A stretch of 64,000 nucleotides of DNA from the NCBI GenBank assembly GCA_000004985.1, contig GG738867.1; one strand, 5' to 3'. The translations under genes were made by a program, and so were the position numbers. How positions within the stretch are numbered: position 1 is the stretch's first letter; every line of letters starts with the position of its first letter. This DNA comes from Naegleria gruberi (lineage: Eukaryota). Positions 4,419 to 57,324 of the stretch are shown piece after piece. A model generated the notes under the pieces. That model was not told the DNA's origin. It did not search any database and saw only the letters and a list, made by a program, of their open reading frames with translations.

Positions 4419-7400
4419 TTATTTCAATTTGCTCAACATTTCAATAAGTTCTTGCAAATTTTCGTAAGTAACCATCACGCTTGATACAGAGTGGCCAACA
4501 CCTGAAATATTACCTGATGATTTTCTACCTAACGAACTGCTGTTCATTGAAATGTTCAACATGCTACTATTGTTAAGAATTGAAGAGTTGAGATTGCTCT
4601 TGTTCAGATTTTGTTTCTTCTTATCTGTGGCATACTTTCTTTGCATCAACTTGGATAATGAAACACATCTCTTCAACAAGTCTTCTCTGACGGCTTTCAA
4701 TCTCTTTGTGTCTGCCTTCTTAATTAGTGAAAGAGCTCTCATGAATATTTCTTCTCTTTCTCTGTAAATTTGAAGTTGATCGAATAAAATTTCGAACCAT
4801 TCATTCTTTTCGTGAACCAGACAATTCAAATACTTAATTCTTGTCAAATTAAGTAATATATCAAGAATGTGAATAAGAAGTTCAGTATGAGGTTTGGATC
4901 TATTGAGCATCTTGATAAAGCTGTACAAAATAGGAACTGCATTGTTGGTAACCAAACTTTCACAACAACTATCACTCCATGTTGTGGTTGTAGCCAAGTT
5001 AGCACATGCACTCATGACTTGATTAACAGAGTTGGATTTGAGCAATACTTCCAAAGAACGTTGGGTTCTATACTTGAGTTTCTTTCTTTCATCAACATTG
5101 GCAGATAAGGTTGTAATTCTTTCTCTGATAGCATTGACTTGATCAGCATTACAACGTCTAACCATGAAGCCTCTGAAAACCTTTTGGATTTTTGTTGCAG
5201 CATCATGCATTTGATGTGAAACACTCTTAATATGATTGATAAATCTTGCAGTAACATGTCTTCTTGCAAGTGCTTGCAACACCAAAACTCTATCTTCTTC
5301 TTGGCTTCTCTTTTTCTCTTCCAAAAATCTTCTGATAGATGTTTGAGCAACAATAGTATGTTCTCTGTCTTGGATGAATTCATTTTGGGCTTGTGTTGCT
5401 CTAATCATGGTTTGAGTATCAACAATGGTGCACATTTGTTGTTGGACTCTCTTTCTTTCCAAGAATCCTCTAATAGAAGCTTGGCAGCTGATAACATCAA
5501 AGGTTTCACAATAGAATGAGACACGAGCAAGTACGCCCTTAATGATTGCTTGACTAAGATAGATGTCATAATAGTCATCCAAAATACTTTCTCTATCATT
5601 CTTAGCTCTAAGGGAAGCTTGGATAGAGAGAATACCTTGTTGCATAAGGTTGGCCTTTTCTCTTTCTCTGAAACTTCTGATGGTAGTTTGAAGAGAAACA
5701 GCTCTATTGGTTTCGATTGAGTGATTCTTTCTATCTCTGAAACCTCTGATTAATGTTTGCAACAATGTGATGGAATTAATGCTTGCCTCTTTTTCTTGTT
5801 GGACTTGATGTCTTCTCATATTGGATTGAAGTGAAAGAACAGATCCAACAAAGTTATTGTACATCTTTCTAAAGAATCCATCTCTCATAGCTCTTTGTAT
5901 TACCATGAGCGATTCTGTTTGTCTTTGTTGATTGTTACGTTGGAGACGACCTCTGATAAGGGCTTGCAAGGTAGTGACTCTATCGAAAGATTCCTCCTTG
6001 TTCTTTCTATCCAAACTTCCCAAAATAATAGCGGATAGAATGTAAGCACGGTATCTGTCCATCAAAGTATCACACTCAAGAGTGAATCTTCTCATAAGAG
6101 ATTGCATTGATGTAATTCTTTCAGTGGATTCAATCATTGCATTCTCAGTTCTAACTCGTCTTAGCAAGGATTGCATGATTTGAACTCTTGATTCTTGGTA
6201 TTTTTGATGAGACTTTTCAATAAATCCTCTAGAAATAGCTTGCATAATGACGATCTTCTTCTGTTCTTCAGCAAATTGTCTTTTTGCAAAAAGGCTTCTT
6301 GCCAAAGATTGAATCGATATTATATCAGCCTTGTCTTGAGCGAATTGAGATCTCTCTTCTTTACCTCTAACTAAGGCTTGTGATTCAGAGATTAGAGAAA
6401 TAGAATCCAATACCTTTCTTCTTTCAACCAAACCTCTTACCATTGATTGTTGAAGAACAATAGCAGATTCATCTTCTTCCAAAGCATTTTCAATATATGA
6501 CTCAAAGTTTTGCATTTCTATTTCATTAAAATAGTCCAACAATTCGGCATAGTCAAGGTAGAATTGCTTTCTTGAAAGATAACCCCTAATGACAGCTTGA
6601 GTTACTTCAACGTCATAAATGTCATCGAGATGAGATTCTCTTTCAATAAAGCTTCTCATAATAGATTGAATATTGAGAGCAGATTGTTTGAATTCAAAGA
6701 CTTTCTTTTGATCTGCAAATGCTCTAGATAAAGCTTGAAGAGTGGTGACTTCTTTCTTTTGAACTACAGTATTCTTTCTACAAAGATATCCTCTAGCCAT
6801 TGCTTGTAGTCTGACTGTCAATTCCATTAGAATTCTGTGTTTTCTTTGTTGTCTAAGGAATTCCAACTTCTTTCTTTCAATATTAGCACGAGTACGGGCT
6901 TCTATAATTGTAGAGGCATCTCGTAAATTGTGGAGTCTTTTTTGCATGTAAATAGTGTGCATCCAATTTTGAATGACAACAAGGGCCTTAGTTTGAATGA
7001 CATTCTCCTTATGTAAATATAATTGATTGAATAAGTGGCCAATTTTACAGACCATTTGATGTTCATCATAATCCTTACTGATTTCTACTGTCTTCTTTTG
7101 AATTTTAGTTGGAGAGAATGAGGCACTCCAACATCCATTGTTGGAATATTGATAATGGTGCAAGAAATCTCTATTCTCTTCTCTAGGTAATATTTCTTCG
7201 AGAGGGAGAGGAGATGGAAGTCTATATTGATTAGAAACAAGGTTAAATACTATTTCTTCTTCAGTTTTAAGCGAAGGAGATGAAAAGTTCCAAACTTTGT
7301 ATTTGGCAGGCAGATTATCATACCTTTCCAATACAGCTTGAATCCATTGAAGAAGCATTGCAACTCTAATATCCTTATAACCTTGAATTAATGAAATTTG

Positions 7401-8563
7401 ATGAATTCCAATGCCGAAATTCTTGAGCTCGTGAACCAATTGTGCCATATTTACAGGAAGGGATTTTTCCAATTCTTTTTGTTTTTCTAAAATTTTTTGA
7501 ATTTCAGACCTAGCAGTACTTTGAATGATTCTCTTCTGAGTTGTGGAAAGACTGTTATTAGTAAGAGCTGATGAATTAGAAGCTACAGCTCTCGATTGTC
7601 CAATAATTGATGATGTTTCCTTTTTCATCTTTTCAGTCTTTTGAATCTTAGTCTTGTTGATGAGTGTAGATTTTTCCAATCTTGATTGCTCTGTTGGTGC
7701 TGTTGTTTTGGTTACTGGTTGAGTTCTTCTAACAATCATTGAGGAATTTTCATTTGGGAGAATGGCAGAAATATTACAAGTGGATAAGTTAAAGGTTGTT
7801 TCTTCAGGTTTTTGAGTGGTAGTTGGTTGTACTCTTGTTGTGTTAAGTCTGGATGTAGTAGTGAGTGGTTTCCTAGTTGTTTGTGCTTTAGTTGCTTCCA
7901 TAGCTTCTCCCATCAAGTAAACAGTAAATCTGAATCTTGTGTTCCACAAAAATACAAGTTGGCAAGAGATTTTACCTGGCTGTAATGGTTGCCAAGAAAT
8001 AGGTATTTGGTAATCTCCACATAGAGCTGGTATAGCATGTGAAACTTCACGAATAGTGAACCCAAACTGAACTGGAAGTTTTTCTACAGCAATTTCTTGT
8101 TGCTTTTGGATTGGATTTGATACAAAGAGTGTCATAACTTTTGATGTACCAAGTTTAACCCTACCAAAGTCAACATATACCTTACTAGCAAATTGTTTGA
8201 GAACCAGAGTTGGCCCTGTTGGAACACCAACTGGTTTTTTATAATTGTTTCATCCATTGTAGCAATAGATGAAAGACCAGAAAAGGTGAGGTCTTGTATT
8301 ATATTTTCCTTGTCATCAACCATTAGAGAAGTATTACTTCCAATTTGTGAAGTTTGAAGAAGAGAGGCATTAGATCGGTCGACACGGTCTACCACAAATC
8401 TGCTGAATTGTGCCTTGTTAAATTGTGGAGAGTTCATGATGGCAGCTGATTTGTTTGTTGTTGTTGATAGAATAGGAAGAGTTTGTGAAGTGTTGAGTGC
8501 ATTGTTGTTGATATTTTGTTGGTTGTTATTATTCACCAGGCTACCTAGCAGTGATCGATTCAT
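4419..8563 (-). CDS. ASPM/Asp (abnormal spindle)-like protein: ASH-like N-terminus, putative CH domain, more than 20 IQ motifs, conserved C-terminal region; frame break at an A6 run near 8235-8240
   Basis: The 1238-aa ORF is full of IQ motifs (IQxxxRGxxxR variants such as 'LLQTLIRGFRDRK', 'ISCQASIRGFLERK', 'ATKIQKVFRGFMVRRC').
A CH-like segment 'AMLLQWIQAVLERY' is present.
The same frame stays coding-like upstream of the listed start ('KPVGVPTGPTLVLKQFASKVYVDFGRVKLGTSKV-MTLFVSNPIQ').
It joins the N/Q-rich 143-aa ORF (8132..8563) through a 1-nt frame change in a homopolymer. Confidence 0.6.
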
Positions 8564-13874: not shown

Positions 13875-13947
13875 GGGGATGTAGCTCACATGGTAGAGCG
13901 CTTCTTTAGCATGGAAGAGGTACGGGGATCGATACCCCGCATCTCCA
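13875..13947 (+). tRNA. tRNA-Ala (anticodon AGC)
   Basis: 73-nt cloverleaf GGGGATG/CATCTCC acceptor with the G3:U70 Ala identity pair.
Anticodon stem CTTCT/GGAAG, loop TTAGCAT.
T-arm CGGGG-ATCGATA-CCCCG. Confidence 0.85.
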
Positions 13948-20793: not shown

Positions 20794-20874
20794 CGCAGAC
20801 TGCAGGATTCGAACCTACGAAGGTTTCCCCAACAGATTTCAAGTCTGTCGCCTTAACCACTCGGCCAAGTCTGC
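20794..20874 (-). tRNA. tRNA-Ser (anticodon UGA), type II with long variable arm
   Basis: Reverse complement reads GCAGACTTGGCCGAGTGGTTAAGGCGACAGACTTGAAATCTGTTGGGGAAACCTTCGTAGGTTCGAATCCTGCAGTCTGCG.
Acceptor GCAGACT/AGTCTGC.
Anticodon stem ACAGA/TCTGT with loop CTTGAAA.
T-loop TTCGAAT. Confidence 0.85.
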
Positions 20875-22075
20875 TACGATTATTACAAAATCAATAGTTT
20901 CTAGCTCGGTATCTCAAATTGCTCTGTTCCACCTAGGTTCAACAAGTTTACTATATAATCTATATAATCGTGTGCACCTTTCATTTTGCTACCAATCCAA
21001 AGATGGATGCAGGCAATCAAAGCAGACTATTCCACCATTCTTTGAAAACAGCAAAATTCAAAATCTAAAGAATCTTCCTTAATTAATAAATACAATAAAT
21101 TATTAAAACAAGATGTTGTATAGCTTCTACACTTTGAAAGAAGAAGATCCAATAAGTAAGAATTGTTATATTGTTCTTAAAGAAGGCGTATTAACATTGC
21201 TACTGGTTCAACCTTGCTAAAACCACAATATATTAATATTTTCCAAGGCACTTCCGAGTTTACTAATACATCACTCATATCCAGTTATTTCCAAACAGTT
21301 CTTGTCCAGGGATTTTACGTTGTTATTGATCGTCACTGTGAAACACGTAATTGCTGATTGCGATCTGCCCTTTTCTACCCGTTTTCTTGCTTGCGAAAGA
21401 GTTTGAGAAAACAATTTTTGAACTCTGAAAGCACTTCAGAGCAATACTTAATAGAAATATTCAAAATACGATAACTAATTGTAATGAGAGTTTCAGAAAT
21501 TGAAAATCCGAAACAATACAAAGATAAAGAAGAATAACTCACTTTCTGAATCAAATCAAGTGCCAAGCTTGATATCCAAAATAATCCATTTTGTTAAGTT
21601 TGACCTTCTTGGCAAAGATCAATAAACCAGCTACTACCTCCAAGCATGATTACAAGAACTCTACACTAATAATAGCTTATAATCATCTACAGTTGTTCTT
21701 CCATCTCAGATACTTGGTTCTAAAACAACATGACATGAAATTCTCATCAACTACAGTCTGTCATCTTTGTAATCAATAGCAACAGTTCATTTTATCTTCC
21801 ACGTTTAGAACCACCATGCCATTTAACGAAAATACGAAACAGTTTTTTATTCCTTTCAGTAATGGCCTTATTTTGATTGTTATCCAAGCTTGATAGGTTG
21901 TTGCCAAAAACGCTTCGGTTATTAACATCCAAAATCTCACAGAACCTCCCAAATGGCAAAAGTTACCTCTACATGGATGTTTTCAACTTCACATTTTACC
22001 GTCAATCAAAGATATTTCACACTCGCTCATCCACTACGAGGTCACAAAAATTTATCAGAAAAAACAAAAACAAAT

Positions 22076-24239: not shown

Positions 24240-24358
24240 AGACTACAACACCACAGGTTCCCAAGTTGTCTCCAACCTCAGTACTGATGTGGCTCGACGA
24301 TGCTTAACTTCTCAAATCGGACGGGATGAGGTGCATTCATCGTGATATGGCCGTAGCC
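24240..24358 (-). rRNA. 5S rRNA gene (copy 1)
   Basis: Reverse complement 'GGCTACGGCCATATCACGATGAATGCACCTCATCCCGTCCGATTTGAGAAGTTAAGCATCGTCGAGCCACATCAGTACTGAGGTTGGAGACAACTTGGGAACCTGTGGTGTTGTAGTCT' (119 nt).
Conserved 5S blocks (GGCCATA…, GAAGTTAAGC, AGTACT, CTTGGGAA).
Helix I pairs GGCUACGGC with GUUGUAGUC.
Followed by a T-run pol III terminator. Confidence 0.85.
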
Positions 24359-37294: not shown

Positions 37295-37368
37295 TGCCTC
37301 CCTTGGGAATCGAACCCAAGACCTCTGTCTTACTAGGACAGCGCTACTGCCAACTGAGCTAGGAAGGC
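37295..37368 (-). tRNA. tRNA-Thr (anticodon AGU)
   Basis: Reverse complement GCCTTCCTAGCTCAGTTGGCAGTAGCGCTGTCCTAGTAAGACAGAGGTCTTGGGTTCGATTCCCAAGGGAGGCA.
Anticodon stem CTGTC/GACAG with loop CTAGTAA.
T-loop TTCGATT.
A T-run terminator follows on the minus strand. Confidence 0.8.
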
Positions 37369-39590: not shown

Positions 39591-41326
39591 TTAAATACAA
39601 TTTGTACAGGAGGAAATAAAACCCTTATCTGGTTGGTATCTACAAAGTGTACATCTAGCTCTTCTGTTAATATCCAAAGTGCCAACATCCATGACATTAT
39701 GTACAACAAGAAACTGCAAATCGTCAATGATTTGTCTGGTCTTTTTGATCATGGTATGGTCTTTTGAAATCATGTAAGAGAACAAGTCTTTTGGGAGTGG
39801 ATACTCCGGGTGCTCCCTTTTAGATTTTTCCACAGCCTTTTTTAGAGACATGTATTGCAAAAATCCAATGTCTGAACTGGAGCCACTCGATGCCTTGATA
39901 TTCTTAACTATTGGCACCATTTCCTTGAATAATCTTTCAATGTCCAAAAGTCTAGAAATTGGAACGCTTGGGTATGTTTGCTGATTTTCAGAATTAATGA
40001 GACAAGTAGCAAATCCACAATATGGTGATGGTCGAATATTGTAATTTCCCTTTCCAAGAACTGATAGGAATGGTTCCAAAATCATTCCCACACTGGCAGG
40101 GAAAAAGTCATCCAATTTAATTTGTCCCTTAGTATCTTCCTCAATTAATTTTAGCAACTCCAAAGGATCCACATTGAAAGACTCGTCAACTTCATTAAAA
40201 GGTACAGCACATCTAATAAACATGAGTAAATCAGATGATTATCAAAACTTACTTTTTAAATTGTTTCATGATTTGGTTTGGTGTTCTCTCAGCCTCGATA
40301 ATAATAAATCTACAAAATCCCTTCATTGGAAAACGAAGTAAATTCAAAATTGAATCCAACTTTGGGAATGGTCGACTGACAACAATTCTGACAATTATTG
40401 TCAAATTGGTAATTTGTTTCAATATCAAAAACGCATTGTTCAACTCTAAAGCAGTTTGCTTTTCAATTCCTTTTTGAAGGAATATTTGTACAGATGGGTG
40501 AATACGAGGATTCAACAAGCAGGTATCGTCCAGCTTTGAAAGTTGAACAACTCTATCAAATGATAACTCTAAAACTATTGGATTATCCTTTGGTACATTG
40601 GCAAGAATCAAATTCACCTTCCTATTCAAAGTGACCATATCTTCCACTAATTTTCCATTCACTCTAATTATTACCTGTAATTTTAATTTATCAATTAATG
40701 AACATTTAATTATAAATATATTATTAATAATTAATAATCATAATTAAACATACATTCTTATCTTTTGGTATTAATTTCATAGTTTCCTTGATGGAATGCA
40801 AAATATGTTGGTCAGGAATAAATTGTTCCTCCGAATAAACATCCAAATCAACCATGAGTGGTGTGTTCTCTATTATTGTTCCATCATTATGAATCTGTTT
40901 TTCCAACTCTTCAATATCTGGATTGAAATTAGGTTTTGATTCTAGAATATCGGGAGAGTAATCCAACGTCTTCATGAAGAAATCAAAACTAGAACTAATT
41001 TTAATTTCCTGATTGCCATGTTCTTGACACTTAATTACTAGCCAAATATCATCCTTCCTCTTTACTATGTGACCTTCTTTCCAATGTTCCTTTTCCAATC
41101 CCTTTCCATCTTCAACAAACGAACAAATTGGGCAAATTGTTTGAGTTAGAAATAATATATTAATATCGGCCTCTGTTGATGATGATGATGGAGGTACCAA
41201 GAGGAGTGATGGTGAATTCACCAACCCACTATTACCACTCGATGATGAGGTGGCAGGAGAGGAGGGTGCCGATTGAGACCCTTTCGATGACTTGGAAGAT
41301 TTTTTGAAAGGGCTCCAAGAGAACAT
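39591..41326 (-). CDS. hypothetical protein; 3 exons (40754-41326, 40253-40674, 39591-40212) joined by introns of 79 nt (GTATGT…TTACAG) and 40 nt (GTAAGT…TTATTAG)
   Basis: Three consecutive minus-strand ORFs join in frame across canonical splice sites ('…LIPKDKN|VIIRVNGKLVEDM…', '…NQIMKQFK|K|CAVPFNEVDESFNVD…').
The N-terminus is Ser-rich.
Cys-containing motifs 'ICPICSFVEDGKG', 'PSPYCGFATCLI' and C-terminal 'RARCTLCRYQPDKGFISSCTNCI'.
I do not recognise the family. Confidence 0.5.
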
Positions 41327-43468: not shown

Positions 43469-46400
43469 TTACTTGAAATATTTAAGAGATAGCAACTGGG
43501 ATGCTGATGGCCTTTGATTTGCATCTTTTTCTAACATTTTCAAAACTATCTCTATCAATTCCTCAGAATATTCACTCTGACTAGATTCCTTCATTTGATT
43601 GGTCAATATTTTTGTTGCATTCTCTGATTGATTTCCCATTAGCATGTTACTAATCGAAGTTGCTTGATCATTGGTCATGATTTGATATATTGAAACACCC
43701 AAAGAGAAAATATCTGTATTGAATGAATACGAACTACCAAGTGCAACTTCAGGACTCATAACTATTAATCGGTTAAATTTGTGAATAAAAACAACTACTT
43801 ACAAAGTGGAGTTCCAACATAGGATTGACCAGTCATTTCTTGATACTTTTTAGCCAATCCAAAGTCTGCTAATACAATGTCAATATTCTCACTTGATAAT
43901 TTCTTGATAAAAATGTTAGTTGGCTTAATATCTCTGTGGATAATGTGCATTTCTTCGTGAACGAATCTCAAAGCTGTCAGCATTTGCTTCAAAATTTGTT
44001 TGATAATCTTTTCACTGCAAATTTCTTGTTTCAATTTTGTTAAATCTCCTGATTCATAATAATCTGTGTCAATAATCAATAAATTATCATTGGTAATGAA
44101 ATAGTCATTAACTTTGATAATATTTGGATGATTAATATTACTCAATTGAGATGCCTCTTTCATAATTGTATTCAAATCTGTAAGGTTTTCAAATTTAACA
44201 ATCTTGATCGCCTTCAACTTGTTTGTCTTTGAATCTGTCACTTTGTAAACACTTCCAAACGCTCCTTGTCCAATTCTTATAATATTTGAATATCTGGAAA
44301 ATGGATTTGCAATATTTGATCCAACAGAAGAGTTAGCAGATGAGGAAATAATCATTGAGCTCATAGAAAGGAAATTTGTATCAGAAAGTTCAACATTTCT
44401 TGCTTCTAATTGAGCTATTTCAACATCTTTCTTCTTTTTCTTTGAGAAACACATAATAATTACAATGACCACTATGAAAATAGCAATTAAAATCAGCAAG
44501 ACTGCAACTATAGGTATCACAATAGCTACTGCCAATACTGTAGAATCAATTGATTGTTGACTTTTCTGAATTTCACAAAATTGTCCTTCAAATCCATTAT
44601 TACATTGACAAGTGTCAAAATCAGAACATTGTCCATTTCCATTGCAAACATTTTCACTAGTTGCCACTGTTCCATTGCAACTCAATTTGGCATCACATGT
44701 ATTATTCCAAGAATTATAAGTAAAATTCTCTCCACAATAGGGAATAACCTTGCGAATATAAGCTCTACCATCAATAAGAAAGATTTCACCTGTACTTTCA
44801 TCATATTCGACTTGTTTTGAGAAGAGTGTAAACATTGAATAAATTCCAAATCCATCTCCATTAAATTTTGCTGATTCAGCTCTGGAACCAGCAATATCCA
44901 CCAACAAACCACTTTGTTTCTGATACATTCGAACAAGATACGTACTAGAACCATCCAAAATAATGATATCCCCATTCCTTTTCACATAGATAGCAGATGG
45001 TTTATCAATAGATGATGACAATGCAGGTAATCTATCCCCTGAATATCCAGTAACAAAGTTTCCAACCAAAGTTCTCAAATAATAAGTGCCTTCTGATAAT
45101 TTTTCAATTCTTCTAATGGCATTATCTGTTAAAATATAAATAAATCCATTATTATGGTGAATATTGCCAATTGCACCAGGATTTGTTTGATTGCTAATTA
45201 TTCCATCATTGATGGAAATATCCAACATGTTAGAGAATGCAAATTCGAGTGAAATAATTTGAGTTTTCATGTTGTATCTATAAATGGAGAAGAATAAGGA
45301 AATGAGCAGATCGCCATTTGTATCATCTATTGTCATTCCAGAGATTATTAATGGACAAGGAGAATCTATACCCTTAACACCAGTCTTGAATTGAGCACCA
45401 AAAGAATTTCCAATAATTCTTTCAAAATTCATAGTTTCTGGATCTATTCGAACAATTCTACATTCGTCCTTAATGTATATCTTTCTATCAAACTTTGAGA
45501 ATGTAGCATATGCCCTTACCATATTCGGCACTATATTCAATGTTAAATAGGGTGTATCCACTGGAGTAGATGTGGATAAATACATGGACGTACTGAGAGA
45601 GGAGGACTTTCCAGTTGTTTCATCATATTTCTTCAATGTCCTAGTATCAATATAGTAGCATACCTTCTTCACAGGATCTCTCATTAGAATGAGTGGATTT
45701 ATTGTTCTAGAGACTGGGTTTAGTCCAGCAATTGTGGAAATTCGCCCACTAGAAATTTCACTAAGGTGAAACATATTTTTCACAAGAATACTTGAATTGT
45801 ATCTGGTAGCAATTGGGGTATTCCTATTAAGGGGTTGAAATTAGTAGTCAATTGACCAATATTGAGAATGGTATTATTACTTACAGAGCTGAGTTTTCGA
45901 ATGGAATATTCTCACCATTATATCCAAGAACATGTTGTGGTGAAAATAATCCAATCCACCAATTTTCTGCAAAGTAAGTGTTTCCAATTGAAAATTATAA
46001 AGTTGACCAACTGTCCAAAAAAATAAATTTCTGTCATTTCTTGAAAATCCTTCAAAGGTCAAAATACTTGGCATTTTCCAATTAAAAACTTTCATTGAAA
46101 CAGTTTCATTCTGAAAGTCAACATATTCATACAGCATATTCTCTACATCTGAATATAAAAATAGAGAATTTGAATTGGGATATCTTAAATTGGGAATAAC
46201 ATTAAATTGTCCAACCGCTCCTGGCACCAAATTAATTTGTAATTTTTTCACAATTCCACCTTTTTGTAAAACTAGAATTGAATTTTGAAAATCTCTGAAG
46301 TAAATTGTAGAATTTTCAAAGGAATCACCAACTGCAGCCAATCCCTGACTTATTGGATAATTCTTAGAGTTTAGAATGAATGTCAAATTTTGAGTTTCCA

Positions 46401-48662: not shown

Positions 48663-51600
48663 TTATTGTTGTGGACATTGTGGTCCTTTGTTCTGATTCA
48701 TTAAGGCAGCGTTCATCATGAGCATTCTTTGTAGTTCTTCTTGATCTGGATGGAATTCATCAGAGTCATAATCGTCAAAGTCATCATCATCATCATCATA
48801 ATAATCACCACCTCTATAATCATCCTCATCATCCTCCTCATCATCATCATCATCGTCATGTACTGTTGTAGGTAATTGTTGAGAATAGATAGAACGTTGT
48901 TGATATGTTCCCTCACGTCTGGCAGGTTGGTGTCGAATGCTTCTAACAAAACTTTCATCGTCACCAACAACTTCCTCTTCCTTATCACTTTCTTCCTCTC
49001 CAAATAGGACAGCTTGGTGGTCCACTTGTGCGATTTGTTTGATTCTTGGAATAACTCTATTATTATCTTTAAATCTCTCCATTTGTGAACCAAATTTTCT
49101 AGTATTCTTAACTTTGTCTTTTGTAACAACATACATATTCCTAAAGTCAATAACTCTTCCTTCCTTATCATCAGGTAATGGAAATTCTGCATCTTTAGTA
49201 TCTCTTGTCTTTAAGAAAGCACGATATTTCTTTTCAAATAGTTTTGACATCTCTTTTGAATAAGTGGTTTGTCCTTCTCTCCAAATATACGTATTCTTTG
49301 ATTTTTTAAGTCTGGTTCCAGAAATGTATGCATCTTGGAAGAAATTTCTAGTGTGAGGGAAAAAGCTTCCTACGTTTTGAGTACCAGGACTGGCTGTAAT
49401 AAATTTCAGTTTGTTAGATTGTTGTTTGACCTTTTTCTTATTTCCAGATGATTTTGAATCTGGATCCACTATGACCTTAATATCGTTAAGGGCTGTTTTT
49501 ATAAAAGGAGGGTTACTACTATAGTGTCTTATGCCATATAACTTGTTTGAAATCTTTCTACAGACATCTCTCGGAGTACTATAGTCAGCTAATCCGGCTG
49601 TGAAATCCACATAAGGGGCAGAAGGACGAATAAGTTTTCTTTGGGTTTGTTCTAAAGTATTACCTCCTCCAACAGACCACCACATTGAATTCTTTCTAGT
49701 ACAATTTTTAATTCCATTTCTAATTAGTAATATTCTTGCTAGACCAGTGACTTGCTGAATATTCAATTTCTTTTTTCTACCAGTAACGCCCCACCAATCA
49801 CTGTTTTGTTTCAATGAATCAGAATCTGTCAAAAGTTTGTTACATATTTTCTTTTCTGAAAAACCAGGAACACCAATTCTAAAGCCTCTCAATCTTTAAG
49901 AAAATTAATCCTCATTCTAATAAATAAATACTTACGCATATTTTACAAGTCTAGTCTCGAATCTAATTAAGGTATTGATTAGATATCATGAAAAACAAAC
50001 TTACGTTGTAGATTGACGATCTGGATCAACAATATTACACCTTGTAGAGAATGCTTTAATGGCCCTTGGTAAAGCATAAACTTGATGTCCATCATATGCA
50101 ACACAACAACTTGCAACATCAAATCCCATTAGTATTTCTGACATACTCTTGTAAATTCTTAAAATAATTTGTACTTTTCTAAAATTAGGATGGAAAGTAA
50201 AAGTGATTGCATTATCTGTTCTTATGATTGCAATGTCATTTAGCTCAGTCTTTCTGTTGTATGTTTTTTTCAAAAAACTAGAATCTGGAATACTGCTGAC
50301 TTGTTTTTTTAAGTGTTCATAAATGTAAATTATCTTATCTATTGCCCTTTTTTCGTCAATATCATAAAGGAAGATGTCAATATCACTCTTAACAAAATTT
50401 TTCTTGTAGTAAGAATATAAATTTTTTTCTGGACTATCTTCTTCCTTCTTCCTGGACTCCTTAAATGCTACGAGTTTGGAAAATTCTTCGTCTCCAGAAG
50501 ATGTAAAGTAATCACTATTTTCAAGAGTTTCTACTTCATCATTGGATTCATCATCTTCAGTCCAATATGGCTTATCATTTGGATCACTGTATGTATTTTC
50601 CTCAATTTCAAAGTTTTTCTTCTCGGCTTGAGGTTTCTCTTGTTGATCAGCAAGTAATAAGCAGTTTAACACTGAACCTCCAGCGCATGCAATATTTGAC
50701 CAATCGAGGTCTTTCAATAAAAAACATGAAAAAGCATCGAATTGATTTTGGAAAGTTTCTTTTGAATTGCAAATAACTGGGATTGGTGGTTTTTTGATTT
50801 GTTCACGTTTACACAATTCTGCAGCCTCTTTTTCATTTTCAAAGTCGAAAAGAGGGTAAATAGAGGATGGTAGCTCTGTTTTCTTGCACAAATCGGAAGA
50901 TTCATCATTAAATAATTCTATCAAGTGTAGTTTTGGATCTTGTAAAATTGGATTATTTCTTTCTAATAAAGAGTTATACATATCTCTCAAAAAGTCTTCA
51001 TTTTTCTTAATGTTGAGATTAGTTTCACCTAGCAATTCGAAAGGAAACCTAAGTGGATCGAGATGTTCAAGCAAAAATTTAACATTCAATTCTTTTGCCA
51101 AGTTATAAAGTTGCTTTCTTGGTGCTACTTCTTTTGGAATATTAGCTGTAAAGTCATCAGAATTATAACACTCAACTAGTACTCTAAAGGTAGATGGGTC
51201 TCTATCAATGAATATCTCCTCATCGTTTCTTTTTTCTTTACAAAGAGTGGTTAATAAACTGTCACGATTAATAAGTTTTTCAAAACCAATTTCAAATAGT
51301 ACCCCTCTTACATTGAATTTTTTGAGTGGTTTTTCAACTTTCTCATCTAATTCCTTCAATTTATCTCTTAATTTGACTAGCTCAGTGTCTTTATCAGCAA
51401 CATATTTATCAAAAAGCTCCTTCTCTTCTTGTGTCAAATAGACAATATCTCTTGTTAGCAATTTAGATTCTTCTTCATCATGTTTTCTATTCTCATCTGA
51501 TTCATTCTTCTCTTGATTGGAATTTGATAATATTTTTCTATCCTTCTTGATTTTGAGTGCAATAATATTACTCAACTTTTGAGTTCCAAAAAAGTCCGAT

Positions 51601-52271
51601 TCTTCTAAAAGGTTTCGTAATTCTATCAAACTTTCTTCAGATGGGTATTCTTCAGGAATGCCGATATATTTTGTTGATCCTGATGAGAGAGTTAAATAAG
51701 GGTTCATAACAATTAACTTACCTGTTCTAATATGTTCTAAAATTATTGGGAAATAATGTGGGTTTCTATCAGCAATTACAATACATCCATTCTCATCTTT
51801 ATCAATTGGGAATTCAGAGTTGATCATAACTTTCAACATGTTTTCTCTTTGGTTCAGTGTTTTCTTGGTTGTTGTGTAAATACCTCCACCAATATTCAAC
51901 TTGATAATATTCTCAGCAGATGTATCATTCGTTGCACGTAATTCACTCAAAGTTGCAGTATCCGATTTGCTATACAAAGGAATACCAACAATACCTTCCT
52001 TGTTGAATTTATCTACCAAGCCTAAAATTTTAATTCGTTGCTCAAGTGAAGCCTTCTCCTTCTTCATACACATCAGAGGAGTGAAGGAAACTTGTTCAGT
52101 TCTTGGCTGATCACTCTTCAGAAGTGGAGTTGTTGGCGATTCTGTTGCCGATGATGAAGAACTCTCACTTGCCGGTGCTGAATTGGATGGCTTTGTGGAG
52201 GTTCGTTTGGCCAAATAAATCTTTCGTTGTGGGGGCATTTTTTTTATTACTGTCGGTTTTGCAGCCTTCAT
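48663..52271 (-). CDS. large protein with two KCTD-type BTB domains and a D/E-rich C-terminus; 3 exons including a 27-nt micro-exon (50005-52271, 49936-49962, 48663-49893)
   Basis: BTB-1 'IIKLNIGGGIYTTTKKTLNQ…CIVIADRNPHYFPIILEHIRTGKL'.
BTB-2 'VRGVLFEIGFEKLINRDSLLTTLC…IFIDRDPSTFRVLVECY'.
The 782-aa ORF ends 'ACA AC|GTAAGT'.
A 42-nt intron, micro-exon 'ATTCGAGACTAGACTTGTAAAATATGC' and a second 42-nt GTAAGT…TTAAAG intron join in frame to the 409-aa ORF (…DPDRQSTTFETRLVKYALRGFRIGVPG…).
ATG chosen at 52271 (MKAAKPTV…). Confidence 0.55.
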
Positions 52272-52365
52272 TCCAATCAAGGCTCGAACAAAAAAACCAA
52301 GCCTTTGATTCACACTACAAATAATTACAAATAATGAATACAACAACAAGAATATTGGTTTTTAA

Positions 52366-54912
52366 TTAAGCAATGGTACATTTCTTTTTCTTTCTGACAA
52401 TTCTTTCTTTTGGAGGATACATTTGTCGAAAATTACTCAATGAAGAAATGATTTTTGCACCACCCAACACATCAAAAGATCCACCTGATAATCCCTTCTT
52501 TACATCCCATACTACATGTTGAACTGTACAATGAATATTTTCTTGATAGGTGAAAGAGGCATGTGGGAATTTTGTTGTAAGAATTTCAATGATTGTTGGT
52601 TTCATATTTTCTAAATGAGCTAATTCTCCCACAATTATAAAATTGCTAGAGACTTCCACCTTCTTATTCCTCTCACGAATAATAGTTTCGTATTGTGAAA
52701 TTGAATTGAGTAGTGTGCTCAATATATTTGAACCTATATGAATTCTCTTCTGTTTTCCTACATATTTAGGTGTCCAAGTTTGTGAAATATTTACTGGTTC
52801 AATGTTTAACTCTGATTCATTGGTATCAATAGTTGGAGGAATATATGCACTCTTAAGAACATCCAAACTCTTTTCATTGCATTTAGATTCTTCATAAACA
52901 ATGTATTCTCTAACAGTTTCGTGTTCAATCACAGGAATTAAATAAACTCCACTTCTGTTGACTTTCAAAACAGTACAGGTTGGTTTTTGATAGTAAATGG
53001 TTCTAAGTTTTTCCTCATCCACATAAATTACATCAATTTCCAACTCGTCCTAATTAATGATATGTTATTTGTTGATAAATAGTGACAGAAAATACTTACG
53101 AGAATGTTGCTTACTTTTGAAATAATGGAATCTGTCCAAGATAGTGGAACTGCTAACAGCAACGGTGTGAAAAAGCTCTTTTTCAAATCGTCTTGATAAA
53201 GTTGAATAATTAGTTCTTTAAAATAGTCATAATCCAAGATATTCGAATTGCAATCAAGAATAAGATTTTCTTTGGAACAATCACGCTGGAAGACTTGATA
53301 TCTATCACCACACACGAGACTTTTAAATCCATAGGCCAGAACATTAAAGTGGGAACCAACTTTTTCTGCACACAAAGCTGGAGAAGAATAAAATAAAGCC
53401 AAAGATGAAAGTCCAAATCTGTAAAATCCATCAATAAAGTCCAATAAGATGACATCTGAGAATCTATTCTGATATGATCTCGATATAAAAGCATGATACC
53501 AATCGCCTATTGTCTGTTGATATTGATAAGTTGCTTGATTTTCAATTGAAGTAATAACTCCTTCCTCTATTTCTTCTTCGAAGTCTAGATTTTTAATTCC
53601 AATTTCTCGACCAAGTGGAACTATAGGATTGATTGGCCATTTTTGAGAGTATCTTTCTTTCCAAATGTATGAGTGTCTTGTAATGGCATTCAGTTCTCTA
53701 TTAAGCTTGAGAAATGTTTGAGAAATTTCTTCTGCTTTCATAAATGAAAATATGGCATAGAAAGCATCTTCTGAAATTGCATAAATTGTAATTGGTGAAT
53801 CTTCTTTACGAGCCGATTGTTCAATTCGAATGCTTTTTGATTCGTTTGTGTGTAAATCCTGAGCTTGAATAAATTTTTCAGTTGCTAATTTAACATTTCC
53901 TTCCTTCTCTAATTGTTCACTTTCTTCCAATAATTGTAAAACTTTTTGGTATTGACTATTTTCAATGTAATTTTGCTTGTAGACACTCTCAGAATCTATT
54001 CTCTTAAAAATCATTTCAGTTCTCACAACATATTTGAAACCTTCCTTTACATAATCTCCTGAGTGGTAAATATCATGATTAAATATTGCTATGGACCCAG
54101 CTTTTGGTTGAACTGTTAAGAGTTTCTTGAATTTCATTTTTGAAAGGTCTTCATTTGTTTCGTCTGGAATCTTTTTCCAAAAGGTAGTTCCGTAAGGAGA
54201 ATCATCTAAATAAATAAGAATGGTGAATATACTTCTCTCATTGTCATTTCTGACAAAGTGAGAATCCATGTGAGGTTTAAAGAAATTTCCTTCCTTATAT
54301 CTGTTAAATCTCAAACATTCGGATAATTCTATTGGAACCCATTTTCCATTGTTATCAAATCCATATGGCTTCACATTTGTAATATCTTCCTTCTTCATCA
54401 TTGGTCTATTTTCAAAATAATAACATTCAAAAACCACGAGACTGTAAAACCTACACTATCCTATTCCATAATATTTCAGCAACTTTCTTACTAGTTACCA
54501 CTACTCTCTCACTATTTCTATACTCTTTTGAATATTCTCTATCAATCGAATGATACCCCAATTCATCAGTCACATCGATCAAATCTTGACATTCCTCCGG
54601 AGAAAGAACTTGTTCCAACACGAACAAACAATCAAGACAAGTAAATTCTTGTTTCTCATTGCCATGATCATTTGATTGCTGATTATCAAATATTTCATCA
54701 TTATTTAATAAATCAATTTCATAAATATTCGGATCTATGTGAATTTTCTTGTGTGGAATTAAATAGTCAACCCGAGTTGGGGAAGTTTGATCTTTTTGAT
54801 GGGAAACAATGATTGGAACTCTGCGTTGTTGTTGATTTGAAGTAGTTGATAATTCTTCAGTTTCGTCCCAAATATTTGCTTGTAGATGTATGTGTGGTGG
54901 AACTCGATTCAT
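52366..54912 (-). CDS. prolyl-4-hydroxylase-like 2OG-Fe(II) oxygenase fused to an F-box-like/unknown C-terminal region ending in a polybasic CaaX box; 3 exons (54455-54912, 53100-54405, 52366-53049)
   Basis: ATG at 54912 (MNRVPPHIHL…).
2OG oxygenase motifs 'FKPHMDSHF' (HxD), 'IFNHDIYHSGD' (distal His) and 'KYVVRTEMIF'.
Intron 1 GTAGGT…AAAATAG (49 nt) removes in-frame stops between ORF 54451-54948 and ORF 53028-54437.
Intron 2 GTAAGT…TTAATTAG (50 nt) joins '…KVSNIL|DELEIDVIYVDEE…'.
The protein ends 'RKKKKCTIA*'. Confidence 0.55.
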
Positions 54913-57205: not shown

Positions 57206-57324
57206 AGACTACAGCACCACAGGTTCCCAAGTTGTCTCCAACCTCAGTACTGATGTGGCTCGACGATGCTTAACTTCTCAAATCGGACGGGATGAGGTGT
57301 ATTCATCGTGATATGGCCGTAGCC
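57206..57324 (-). rRNA. 5S rRNA gene (copy 2)
   Basis: Near-identical to copy 1 (2 substitutions inside the gene).
The same conserved 5' flank lies at 57325-57362.
An A6/T6 terminator run lies immediately 3'. Confidence 0.85.

What the first reader, a model, noticed from the sequence alone, without database searches (positions are those of the whole stretch)
49936..49962. 27-nt micro-exon bridging two large ORFs of a tandem-BTB gene
The 782-aa and 409-aa minus-strand ORFs are separated by 108 nt containing two GTAAGT sites. Using both sites with AG acceptors leaves a 27-nt exon 'ATTCGAGACTAGACTTGTAAAATATGC' and two 42-nt introns. The reading frame is then continuous with no stop (…RQSTT-FETRLVKYA-LRGFRIG…). 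The matching 42-nt intron lengths support it. Micro-exons this small are easy to miss and are rare in protists.
Basis: inference. Interest (0 to 1): 0.5.

Follow-up and report, generated by a model that had tools for sequence, protein, structure and literature searches.

The report
Conserved 27-nt micro-exon in Naegleria
The two large open reading frames are one Naegleria gruberi gene joined through a real 27-base exon that encodes the most conserved helix of a nucleotidyltransferase-like domain; it is a sound gene-model correction, since related N. lovaniensis genes are already annotated with the same tiny exon.

Summary
On the minus strand, two GTAAGT...AG introns of 42 nt each (50004..49963 and 49935..49894) flank a 27-nt exon (49962..49936), and the frame reads ...RQSTT-FETRLVKYA-LRGFRIG... 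Homology decides the question. All 63 aligned homologues carry a gap-free counterpart of the nine residues. The only three invariant columns of the family (R, K, Y) lie inside the micro-exon. A profile built from 62 homologues scores the micro-exon isoform at 226.5 bits and the skipped isoform at 184.4; the best of 2000 random 27-mers reaches 215.9. The window is Naegleria gruberi. Two annotated N. lovaniensis genes have a 27-nt exon at the same position and phase, and codon differences from N. gruberi are mostly synonymous. The clearly required introns elsewhere in the window are 40-50 nt. The residues form one confidently modelled helix of a Gad2-type (Pol-beta-like) nucleotidyltransferase domain. 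The gene has the layout BTB x2, Gad2-like domain, acidic tail, and seems absent from the N. gruberi reference proteome. It also hides a third 42-nt in-frame intron. No transcript data could be checked. This is a new member of a known kind, of modest interest.

The parts
51722..52271 (-). Exon 1 of the refined gene model (from the first ATG, MKAAKPTV...; the true start is not verified). It encodes the N-terminus and most of the first BTB_2 (T1/KCTD-type) domain.
   Evidence: ORF; CDS assembly translated without an internal stop; BTB_2 hit.
51680..51721 (-). Hidden 42-nt intron (GTAAGTTAATTG...CTCATCAG), phase 1. It is in frame and stop-free, so it is invisible in an ORF scan.
   Evidence: There is a clean 14-aa gap in the alignment with the N. 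lovaniensis ortholog P0076, exactly at that gene's annotated intron 1. The Pfam BTB_2 match extends from profile positions 1-71 to 1-88 of 94 when it is removed, but the score does not improve.
50005..51679 (-). Exon 2. It encodes the rest of BTB 1, a coiled linker, the second BTB_2 domain and the N-terminal three quarters of the Gad2-like nucleotidyltransferase domain (AGGS...DIDIF...GFD motifs), ending ...DPDRQST(T).
49963..50004 (-). 42-nt intron 5' of the micro-exon (GTAAGTTTGT...CCTTAATTAG), phase 2. The stop codon of the 782-aa ORF is the TAA inside the GTAAGT donor.
   Evidence: The same position and phase occur in three N. lovaniensis genes: 54 nt in P0076, 77 nt in P0003 and 52 nt in P0002.
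49936..49962 (-). The 27-nt micro-exon ATTCGAGACTAGACTTGTAAAATATGC. With the flanking split codons it encodes (T)FETRLVKY(A), a helix that carries the family-invariant R, K and Y.
49894..49935 (-). 42-nt intron 3' of the micro-exon (GTAAGTATTT...TTTCTTAAAG), phase 2.
   Evidence: The same position and phase occur in N. lovaniensis P0076 (65 nt) and P0003 (51 nt). The intron is absent in P0002, Acrasis kona P0006 and the metagenomic paralogue P0007.
48663..49893 (-). Exon 4 (stop codon included). It encodes LRGFRIGVPG..., the rest of the Gad2-like domain, a region that aligns with the WWE-bearing part of paralogue P0002, and an acidic D/E-rich tail.
   Evidence: The 409-aa ORF has no ATG at its 5' end; the listed start is a mechanical TTG.

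Best explanation
The 782-aa and 409-aa minus-strand ORFs are one Naegleria gruberi gene of about 1160 codons. Its domain order is two T1-type BTB domains, a Gad2-type (Pol-beta-like) nucleotidyltransferase-fold domain, and an acidic tail. Three 42-nt GTAAGT...AG spliceosomal introns interrupt it. The last two lie only 27 nt apart, and the 27 nt between them is a constitutive coding micro-exon. It encodes F-E-T-R-L-V-K-Y-A, a single alpha-helix in the core of the nucleotidyltransferase-like domain that holds the only three residues (R, K, Y) invariant across the family. The proposed mechanism is an inference. In a genome whose introns are about 40-50 nt, each intron would be recognised as a unit across its own short length (intron definition). 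The size of the exon between two introns would then not limit recognition, and the perfect GTAAGT donors would make both introns strong. What is shown: the splice signals, the frame, the conservation of the peptide, the same exon in N. lovaniensis genes, and codon-level purifying selection. What is inferred: that the exon is actually spliced in and included constitutively, and the biochemical role of the helix.
For: (1) The coordinates, signals and frame were verified. (2) In pairwise BLAST, all 62 homologues whose alignment spans the junction show a counterpart of the motif [YF]-E-x-R-L-x-K-Y-x-x-R-G-F over the junction, with no gap inside the nine residues. In the 64-row alignment R265, K268 and Y269 are 63/63 identical, L266 is 61/63 and E263 is 53/63, with zero gaps. 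These are the only invariant columns of the whole alignment. (3) Against a profile HMM built from the homologues only, the 27-nt exon isoform scores 226.5 bits, the 15-nt exon isoform 205.0 and the skipped isoform 184.4. For 2000 random stop-free 27-mers from the window the maximum is 215.9 and z is 8.9. (4) The organism is N. gruberi. The annotated N. lovaniensis genes C9374_007401 (P0076, the best full-length match at 557 bits and 1189 aa) and C9374_002782 (P0003) each have a 27-nt exon at the identical position, with phase-2 introns on both sides. Those models came from BRAKER1 with RNA-seq hints (PMC6125883). (5) Over the 10 codons compared, N. gruberi and P0076 differ at 5 synonymous and 3 conservative codons, for example Arg AGA/CGT and Lys AAA/AAG. 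The flanking introns differ in length between the two species (42/42 nt against 54/65 nt). (6) The other clearly required introns in the window are 40, 41 and 50 nt, with GTAAGT donors and ...TTAATTAG-like acceptors. The gene's three GT[AG]AGT sites each have an AG exactly 42 nt downstream. (7) In an AlphaFold2 model of homologue P0004, the equivalent residues form helix 218-228 at pLDDT above 90. (8) The 409-aa ORF lacks an ATG start and begins in the middle of the domain.
Against: No transcript evidence was obtainable. An exact scan of public metagenome contigs for the spliced junction found nothing, which is uninformative. No transcript-derived protein spanning the junction exists in the protein collection. 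The N. lovaniensis exons are gene predictions, not verified cDNAs. Because the exon is symmetric (phase 2/2, 27 nt), skipping would also give an open frame, so some alternative skipping cannot be excluded. There is no flank synteny with the N. lovaniensis locus, so orthology rests on best hit, architecture and shared intron positions.
Confidence: 0.9

Rival explanations
1. There is a single 111-nt intron (50004..49894). The 27 nt are intronic and the protein reads ...RQSTT-LRGFRIG...
For: The frame is preserved. It uses the same strong donor and the same final acceptor. A mechanical scan for ORF-joining introns lists it.
Against: It deletes the only three invariant residues of the family and costs 42 bits against the homologue profile. 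No homologue has a gap there. It would leave an unused perfect GTAAGT donor and a TTAATTAG acceptor inside the intron. At 111 nt it is more than twice the length of the clearly required introns in the window. The N. lovaniensis annotations include the exon, and the 27 nt show a coding-type substitution pattern.
Confidence: 0.03
2. The micro-exon is real but alternatively included. Because it is a symmetric 27-nt exon, skipping would give an in-frame isoform whose nucleotidyltransferase-like domain lacks its invariant helix, which could act as an on/off switch.
For: The phase 2/2 symmetry and 3n length allow it. Exon skipping and intron retention were detected in N. gruberi transcriptomes generally (PMC6142364).
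Against: There are no data for this gene. Strong consensus donors on both sides and short introns favour constitutive removal of each intron. That study found intron retention more frequent than exon skipping in all but one species it analysed.
Confidence: 0.1
3. A shorter 15-nt exon (49950..49936) is used, through the acceptor AG at 49951, giving ...RQSTT-LVKYA-LRGFRIG...
For: It is in frame and stop-free, and it retains K and Y.
Against: It loses the invariant R and the conserved [YF]-E. It scores 21.5 bits lower than the 27-nt exon. Both N. lovaniensis genes with this exon use the 27-nt version. The acceptor context GAGACTAG is less like the window's TTAATTAG-type acceptors.
Confidence: 0.02
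4. These are two separate genes, or a decaying pseudogene. The 782-aa ORF would end at its TAA and the 409-aa ORF would be independent or dead.
For: A prokaryote-style gene caller on a metagenomic contig called the 409-aa ORF on its own. No N. gruberi reference model joins them.
Against: The break falls in the middle of a conserved domain that is contiguous in every homologue. The 409-aa ORF has no ATG at its start. Both ORFs are intact over more than 1100 codons. The splice signals are perfect and their positions are shared with N. lovaniensis.
Confidence: 0.02

Closest known systems
Annotated 27-nt exons of Naegleria lovaniensis genes C9374_007401 (P0076) and C9374_002782 (P0003)
   Same: The exon length (27 nt), position in the protein, intron phases (2 and 2), encoded motif (YEVRLVKY against FETRLVKY) and overall architecture (BTB_2 x2 plus a Gad2-like domain) are the same.
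   Different: The flanking introns are longer in N. lovaniensis (54/65 and 77/51 nt against 42/42). P0003 has an additional 29-nt exit exon immediately downstream and P0076 a 49-nt exon immediately upstream; both regions are continuous in N. gruberi. The N. gruberi gene appears to have no reference model.
Spliceosomal micro-exons in general (animal 3-27-nt neuronal micro-exons; plant micro-exons). This comparison rests on general knowledge and was not tested here.
   Same: It is a very short internal coding exon, of 3n length, flanked by canonical GT-AG introns with strong splice sites, and it encodes a conserved structural element of a protein domain.
   Different: There is no evidence of regulated or tissue-specific inclusion. 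It sits between very short (42-nt) introns in an intron-poor unicellular excavate, so recognition by intron definition is the likely mode, rather than the enhancer-dependent exon definition described for animals. This is an inference.
Pfam PF26128 'Gad2' domain. The name presumably derives from phage Gabija anti-defence protein 2, predicted from an AlphaFold2 model to have a nucleotidyltransferase domain (bioRxiv 10.1101/2023.05.01.538930).
   Same: Most homologues of the junction region carry precomputed PF26128 hits. The family alignment shows A-G-G, D-x-D and a further conserved D, as in Pol-beta-type nucleotidyltransferases. The top Foldseek hits are CCA-adding enzymes, poly(A) polymerases, OAS, CD-NTases and TUTases. 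Homologues give a weak match to PHROG 1614 'nucleotidyltransferase'.
   Different: These are eukaryotic multidomain proteins (BTB, WWE, ankyrin, SAM or PARP partners), not phage proteins. tblastn of a family member against 50,697 phage genomes found no match. All structural matches are weak (best E = 0.012). No activity is known. The link between the Pfam name and phage Gad2 is inferred from the name only.

Membership tests
Spliceosomal coding micro-exon | Canonical GT...AG introns on both sides | tested here: met
   GTAAGT...TTAG (50004..49963) and GTAAGT...AAAG (49935..49894).
Spliceosomal coding micro-exon | Internal exon of 27 nt or less (strict definition) that maintains the reading frame | tested here: met
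   27 nt, phase 2 on both sides, no stop.
Spliceosomal coding micro-exon | The encoded residues are homologous to contiguous residues in intron-less relatives | tested here: met
   Gap-free alignment in 63/63 homologues, with R, K and Y invariant. A gain of 42 bits over the skipped isoform, z = 8.9 against random 27-mers. The motif is contiguous in Acrasis P0006 and metagenomic P0007 DNA.
Spliceosomal coding micro-exon | The exon and both intron positions are conserved in another species | tested here: met
   N. lovaniensis L007 6673..6699 and L003 4836..4862, both 27 nt with phase 2/2. The codon differences are mostly synonymous.
Spliceosomal coding micro-exon | Spliced transcripts containing the exon | not testable with these tools
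   No RNA-seq access. An exact junction scan of metagenome contigs found nothing. No junction-spanning protein is in the collection. N. gruberi RNA-seq exists as PRJEB23822.
Regulated (alternatively included) micro-exon | Variable inclusion between conditions | not testable with these tools
   Only the precondition (symmetric 3n exon) is met.
Pfam PF26128 (Gad2) / Pol-beta-fold nucleotidyltransferase | Match to the family HMM | tested here: inconclusive
   The local Pfam copy does not contain PF26128: the N. gruberi protein and known members P0002, P0004 and P0014 all return no hit. Most homologues, including the best N. lovaniensis match P0076, carry precomputed PF26128 hits. The N. gruberi segment matches a profile of those homologues at 226.5 bits.
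Pfam PF26128 (Gad2) / Pol-beta-fold nucleotidyltransferase | hG[GS] ... DxD ... D catalytic signature | tested here: met
   A35-G36-G37(-S38), D135-x-D137 and D223 of the query segment are conserved in at least 90% of 64 sequences.
Pfam PF26128 (Gad2) / Pol-beta-fold nucleotidyltransferase | Structural similarity to solved nucleotidyltransferases | tested here: inconclusive
   The AF2 model of homologue P0004 has pTM 0.71. The Foldseek top hits are nearly all NTases, but the best E is 0.012 and TM is below 0.3.
Pfam PF26128 (Gad2) / Pol-beta-fold nucleotidyltransferase | Sequence similarity to phage Gad2 proteins | tested here: not met
   tblastn of P0004 against 50,697 phage records found no match at E <= 1e-3. 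There are only weak PHROG 1614/4400 hits.
BTB_2 (T1/KCTD-type BTB), tandem | Pfam PF02214 above the gathering score, in two copies | tested here: met
   62.1 bits against a cut-off of 21.4, in two stretches.
WWE domain | Pfam PF02825 match in the N. gruberi protein | tested here: not met
   No hit at E <= 0.1. Paralogue P0002 has WWE at 26.6 bits, and the N. gruberi region only aligns with it loosely.

The most novel reading that the evidence does not exclude
The symmetric 27-nt exon, which encodes the only invariant residues (R, K, Y) of a nucleotidyltransferase-like domain, is alternatively skipped in Naegleria. Skipping would act as a frame-preserving switch that turns the enzyme domain off while keeping the BTB scaffold. 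This would be a regulated micro-exon switch in an excavate protist, conserved between N. gruberi and N. lovaniensis.
Probability: 0.07. Interest if true: 0.6.

Novelty: new member of a known kind. Interest (0 to 1): 0.25.

Why it matters
The practical point is that this finding corrects a gene model. A four-exon gene of about 1160 codons, with two BTB domains and a Gad2-like nucleotidyltransferase domain, has no counterpart in the N. gruberi reference proteome as represented in the protein collection. An ORF-based view splits the gene in two, and it also hides a stop-free in-frame intron. The finding shows that very small exons (27-49 nt) recur in this Naegleria gene family and are conserved between species, which is useful for re-annotating heterolobosean genomes. 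It also identifies the R-L-x-K-Y helix as the most conserved element of the uncharacterised eukaryotic Gad2-like domain, which makes it a reasonable target for mutagenesis. None of this changes what is known about splicing or micro-exons.

Tried and rejected
(1) Frame continuity was rejected as a discriminator, because the 111-nt single intron and a 15-nt exon also keep the frame.
(2) Metagenomic contigs carrying the 409-aa ORF (L001, L002) are genomic DNA that is 99% identical to the window, with an identical junction, so they add nothing.
(3) Exact look-ups of 11 candidate protein models and neighbouring ORFs, for this gene and its neighbours, were all absent from the collection. This is uninformative about the exact reference model.
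(4) The full-length homology search was swamped by the acidic tail and capped at 8000 candidates. It returned only P0076.
(5) The search with the N-terminal half was also capped and returned nothing at E <= 1e-10. It therefore shows only that no near-identical model exists.
(7) The local Pfam copy lacks PF26128.
(8) tblastn against phage genomes found no match, so the Gad2 link could not be confirmed.
(9) The exact spliced-junction scan and the related-loci scan of metagenome contigs were both empty.
(10) tblastx showed no conserved flanks between L007 and the window, so there is no synteny support.
(11) A literature search for 'Naegleria' plus 'microexon' found nothing relevant, and PRJEB11402 was not found in any paper.
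(12) Removing the hidden intron extended the Pfam BTB_2 coverage but did not raise the score, so that test is neutral.
Full report
OBSERVATION. On the minus strand the 782-aa ORF (52349..50001) and the 409-aa ORF (49892..48663) are separated by 108 nt. GTAAGT donors start at 50004 and 49935, and AG acceptors end at 49963 and 49894. This gives two 42-nt introns around a 27-nt exon, 49962..49936 (ATTCGAGACTAGACTTGTAAAATATGC). Both introns are phase 2, and the spliced reading is ...DPDRQSTT-FETRLVKYA-LRGFRIGVPG... with no stop. The TAA that ends the 782-aa ORF lies inside the first GTAAGT.

It would not. 42 + 27 + 42 = 111 nt = 37 codons, so ...RQSTT-LRGFRIG... is also open. A 15-nt exon that uses the AG at 49951 is open too. 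Frame continuity therefore says nothing about whether the micro-exon exists, and other evidence is needed.

HOMOLOGY DECIDES. A search with the segment spanning the junction found 63 proteins. One is the metagenomic copy of the 409-aa ORF itself, P0001. The other 62 are homologues from Naegleria lovaniensis, Acrasis kona, fungi, a stramenopile and metagenomes, and most carry Pfam PF26128. All 62 have alignments that span the junction, and each shows a counterpart of the nine residues with no gap inside them, within the motif [YF]-E-x-R-L-x-K-Y-x-x-R-G-F.

In a 64-sequence MAFFT alignment the only invariant columns are R265, K268 and Y269 of the query segment. L266 is identical in 61 of 63 homologues and E263 in 53 of 63. 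All of these lie inside the micro-exon, which covers residues 262-270, and no sequence has a gap there.

A profile HMM built from the 62 homologues, with the query excluded, scored each candidate isoform:
- 27-nt exon: 226.5 bits
- 15-nt exon: 205.0 bits
- skipped exon (111-nt intron): 184.4 bits

As a null, 2000 random stop-free 27-mers from this window were inserted at the same place. They gave a mean of 190.2 bits, an SD of 4.1 and a maximum of 215.9, so the real exon lies at z = 8.9.

ORGANISM AND COMPARATIVE GENE STRUCTURE. Eight intron-free ORFs in the window are exact matches to Naegleria gruberi NEG-M reference proteins on a 424-kb scaffold. I mapped the annotated N. lovaniensis proteins back onto their genomic loci, with these results:
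- C9374_007401 (P0076) is 1189 aa and is the best full-length match at 557 bits, so it is the likely ortholog. It has a 27-nt exon at L007 6673..6699 between introns of 54 and 65 nt, both phase 2.
- C9374_002782 (P0003) has a 27-nt exon at L003 4836..4862 between introns of 77 and 51 nt, followed by a 29-nt exon.
- C9374_010314 (P0002) shares only the first of the two introns.
- The Acrasis kona homologue and an N. gruberi-like metagenomic paralogue (P0007) have neither intron.

The two introns therefore arose within the Naegleria lineage, and the micro-exon is shared between N. gruberi and N. lovaniensis. The N. lovaniensis models were produced by BRAKER1 using RNA-seq (PMC6125883). Across the 10 codons that cover the exon, N. 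gruberi and P0076 differ at 5 synonymous codons (for example Arg AGA/CGT, Lys AAA/AAG, Glu GAG/GAA) and 3 conservatively replaced codons (F/Y, T/V, A/S). The flanking introns differ in length between the species. This is the pattern expected of translated sequence under purifying selection.

INTRON HABIT OF THE GENOME. Introns are rare in the window. Outside this gene, the ones that are clearly required to join long ORFs are 40, 41 and 50 nt long. They have GTAAGT donors, A/T-rich bodies (19-31% G+C across the six introns listed) and acceptors resembling ...TTAATTAG. Two 42-nt introns fit this pattern. A 111-nt intron containing an unused perfect donor and acceptor does not.

SIDE FINDING: A THIRD, HIDDEN INTRON. 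The alignment with P0076 shows a clean 14-aa gap in N. gruberi at exactly the position of the ortholog's intron 1. The DNA there is GTAAGTTAATTGTTATGAACCCTTATTTAACTCTCTCATCAG, at 51721..51680. This is another 42-nt intron. It is in frame and stop-free, so it is invisible in the 782-aa ORF. The gene contains exactly three GT[AG]AGT sites on its coding strand, and each has an AG 42 nt downstream. These three are the only ones among the 26 GTAAGT sites in the window that do. Removing the hidden intron extends the Pfam BTB_2 match from profile positions 1-71 to 1-88 of 94, but the score does not rise, so that particular test is neutral. The refined model is 52271..51722, 51679..50005, 49962..49936 and 49893..48663. 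It encodes 1160 aa, and the start codon is not verified.

WHAT THE GENE IS. The region around the micro-exon belongs to the family that Pfam calls PF26128 'Gad2' (precomputed on homologues). The local Pfam copy lacks this model. The family alignment shows A-G-G(-S), D-x-D and a further conserved D, which is the Pol-beta nucleotidyltransferase signature.

An AlphaFold2 model of the compact homologue P0004 has pTM 0.71 and a core pLDDT of 90-98. It places the residues equivalent to the micro-exon in a single helix, 218-228, at pLDDT above 90. The Foldseek matches are individually weak (best E = 0.012). The top of the list is nevertheless almost entirely nucleotidyltransferases: CCA-adding enzymes, poly(A) polymerases, OAS, CD-NTases and TUTases. 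Family members also match PHROG 1614 'nucleotidyltransferase' weakly.

The name Gad2 presumably refers to the phage Gabija anti-defence protein 2, which was predicted to have a nucleotidyltransferase domain (bioRxiv 10.1101/2023.05.01.538930). A tblastn search against phage genomes gave no match, so that link rests on the name only. A WWE domain is present in paralogue P0002 but was not detected in the N. gruberi protein.

ANNOTATION STATUS. The neighbouring genes have N. gruberi reference proteins, but no search retrieved one for this gene. The search of the C-terminal half found only a metagenomic ORF call. The searches with the full-length protein and the N-terminal half found no near-identical protein. 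Seven exact look-ups of candidate models for this gene failed. The gene is probably missing from the reference proteome. This is not proven, because two of the searches were capped at 8000 candidates.

HOW IT MOST LIKELY WORKS. This part is inference. With introns of about 42 nt, each intron would be recognised across its own length (intron definition). A 27-nt exon between two such introns would then pose no recognition problem, and the consensus GTAAGT donors would make both introns efficient. The exon supplies one helix of the nucleotidyltransferase-like core, carrying the invariant R, K and Y. Without it the domain would very probably be non-functional, which argues for constitutive inclusion. 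Because the exon is symmetric (phase 2/2), a minor skipped isoform is possible but untested.

LIMITS. No transcript evidence could be examined. A scan for the exact spliced junction and a related-loci scan of public metagenome contigs were both empty. N. gruberi RNA-seq exists as PRJEB23822 (PMC6142364) and would settle the question.

VERDICT. Micro-exons are a known phenomenon, and related N. lovaniensis genes are already annotated with the same exon. The finding is therefore a new member of a known kind: a useful gene-model correction of modest general interest.

Noticed in passing
window 51680..51721 (-): A third 42-nt GTAAGT...CAG intron is hidden inside the 782-aa ORF. It is in frame and stop-free, and it lies exactly at intron 1 of the N. 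lovaniensis ortholog (a 14-aa alignment gap). ORF scanning cannot see it.
   Followed up: yes
window 48663..52271 (-): The whole BTB x2 / Gad2-like gene has no N. gruberi reference protein in the 5.8-billion-protein collection, although its neighbours do. It is probably unannotated in the reference genome.
   Followed up: partly
window 52366..54437 (-), intron 53050..53099: The neighbouring 469-aa and 225-aa ORFs overlap and are joined by a 50-nt GTAAGT...TTAATTAG intron into one product of about 660 aa. My candidate models for it are not in the collection either.
   Followed up: partly
L003 4836..4862 and 4914..4942; L007 6570..6618 and 6673..6699: The N. lovaniensis relatives carry runs of tiny exons (27 + 29 nt and 49 + 27 nt) in this same part of the domain, so intron density is locally high in the Naegleria Gad2-like genes.
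   Followed up: partly
alignment A1 / query segment residues 262-270 (window 49936..49962): The only invariant columns of the 64-sequence Gad2-like family alignment (R, K, Y) are all encoded by the micro-exon. The family also shows an AGG(S)...DxD...D nucleotidyltransferase signature and occurs fused to BTB, WWE, ankyrin, SAM and PARP domains in various eukaryotes.
   Followed up: partly
window 24240..24358 (-), 57206..57324 (-), 21298..21439 (+), 13875..13947 (+), 20794..20874 (-), 37295..37368 (-): The window contains two dispersed 5S rRNA genes, a U4 snRNA gene and three tRNA genes scattered among the protein-coding genes.
   Followed up: no
L001/L002 (ERR1078381, PRJEB11402) and L005: A public metagenome contains an N. 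gruberi-like strain about 99% identical to the window (99.2% for L001, 99.6% for L002). It also contains an intron-less paralogue of the Gad2-like region (P0007, ...RQSTTFETRLIKYAMRGFRIG...), which also lacks an NCBI source.
   Followed up: partly
window 40213..40252 (-), 43762..43802 (-): Two further short introns (40 and 41 nt, GTAAGT...TTATTAG/TTAATAG) are needed to join long ORFs. They were used here only as a reference for intron size.
   Followed up: no
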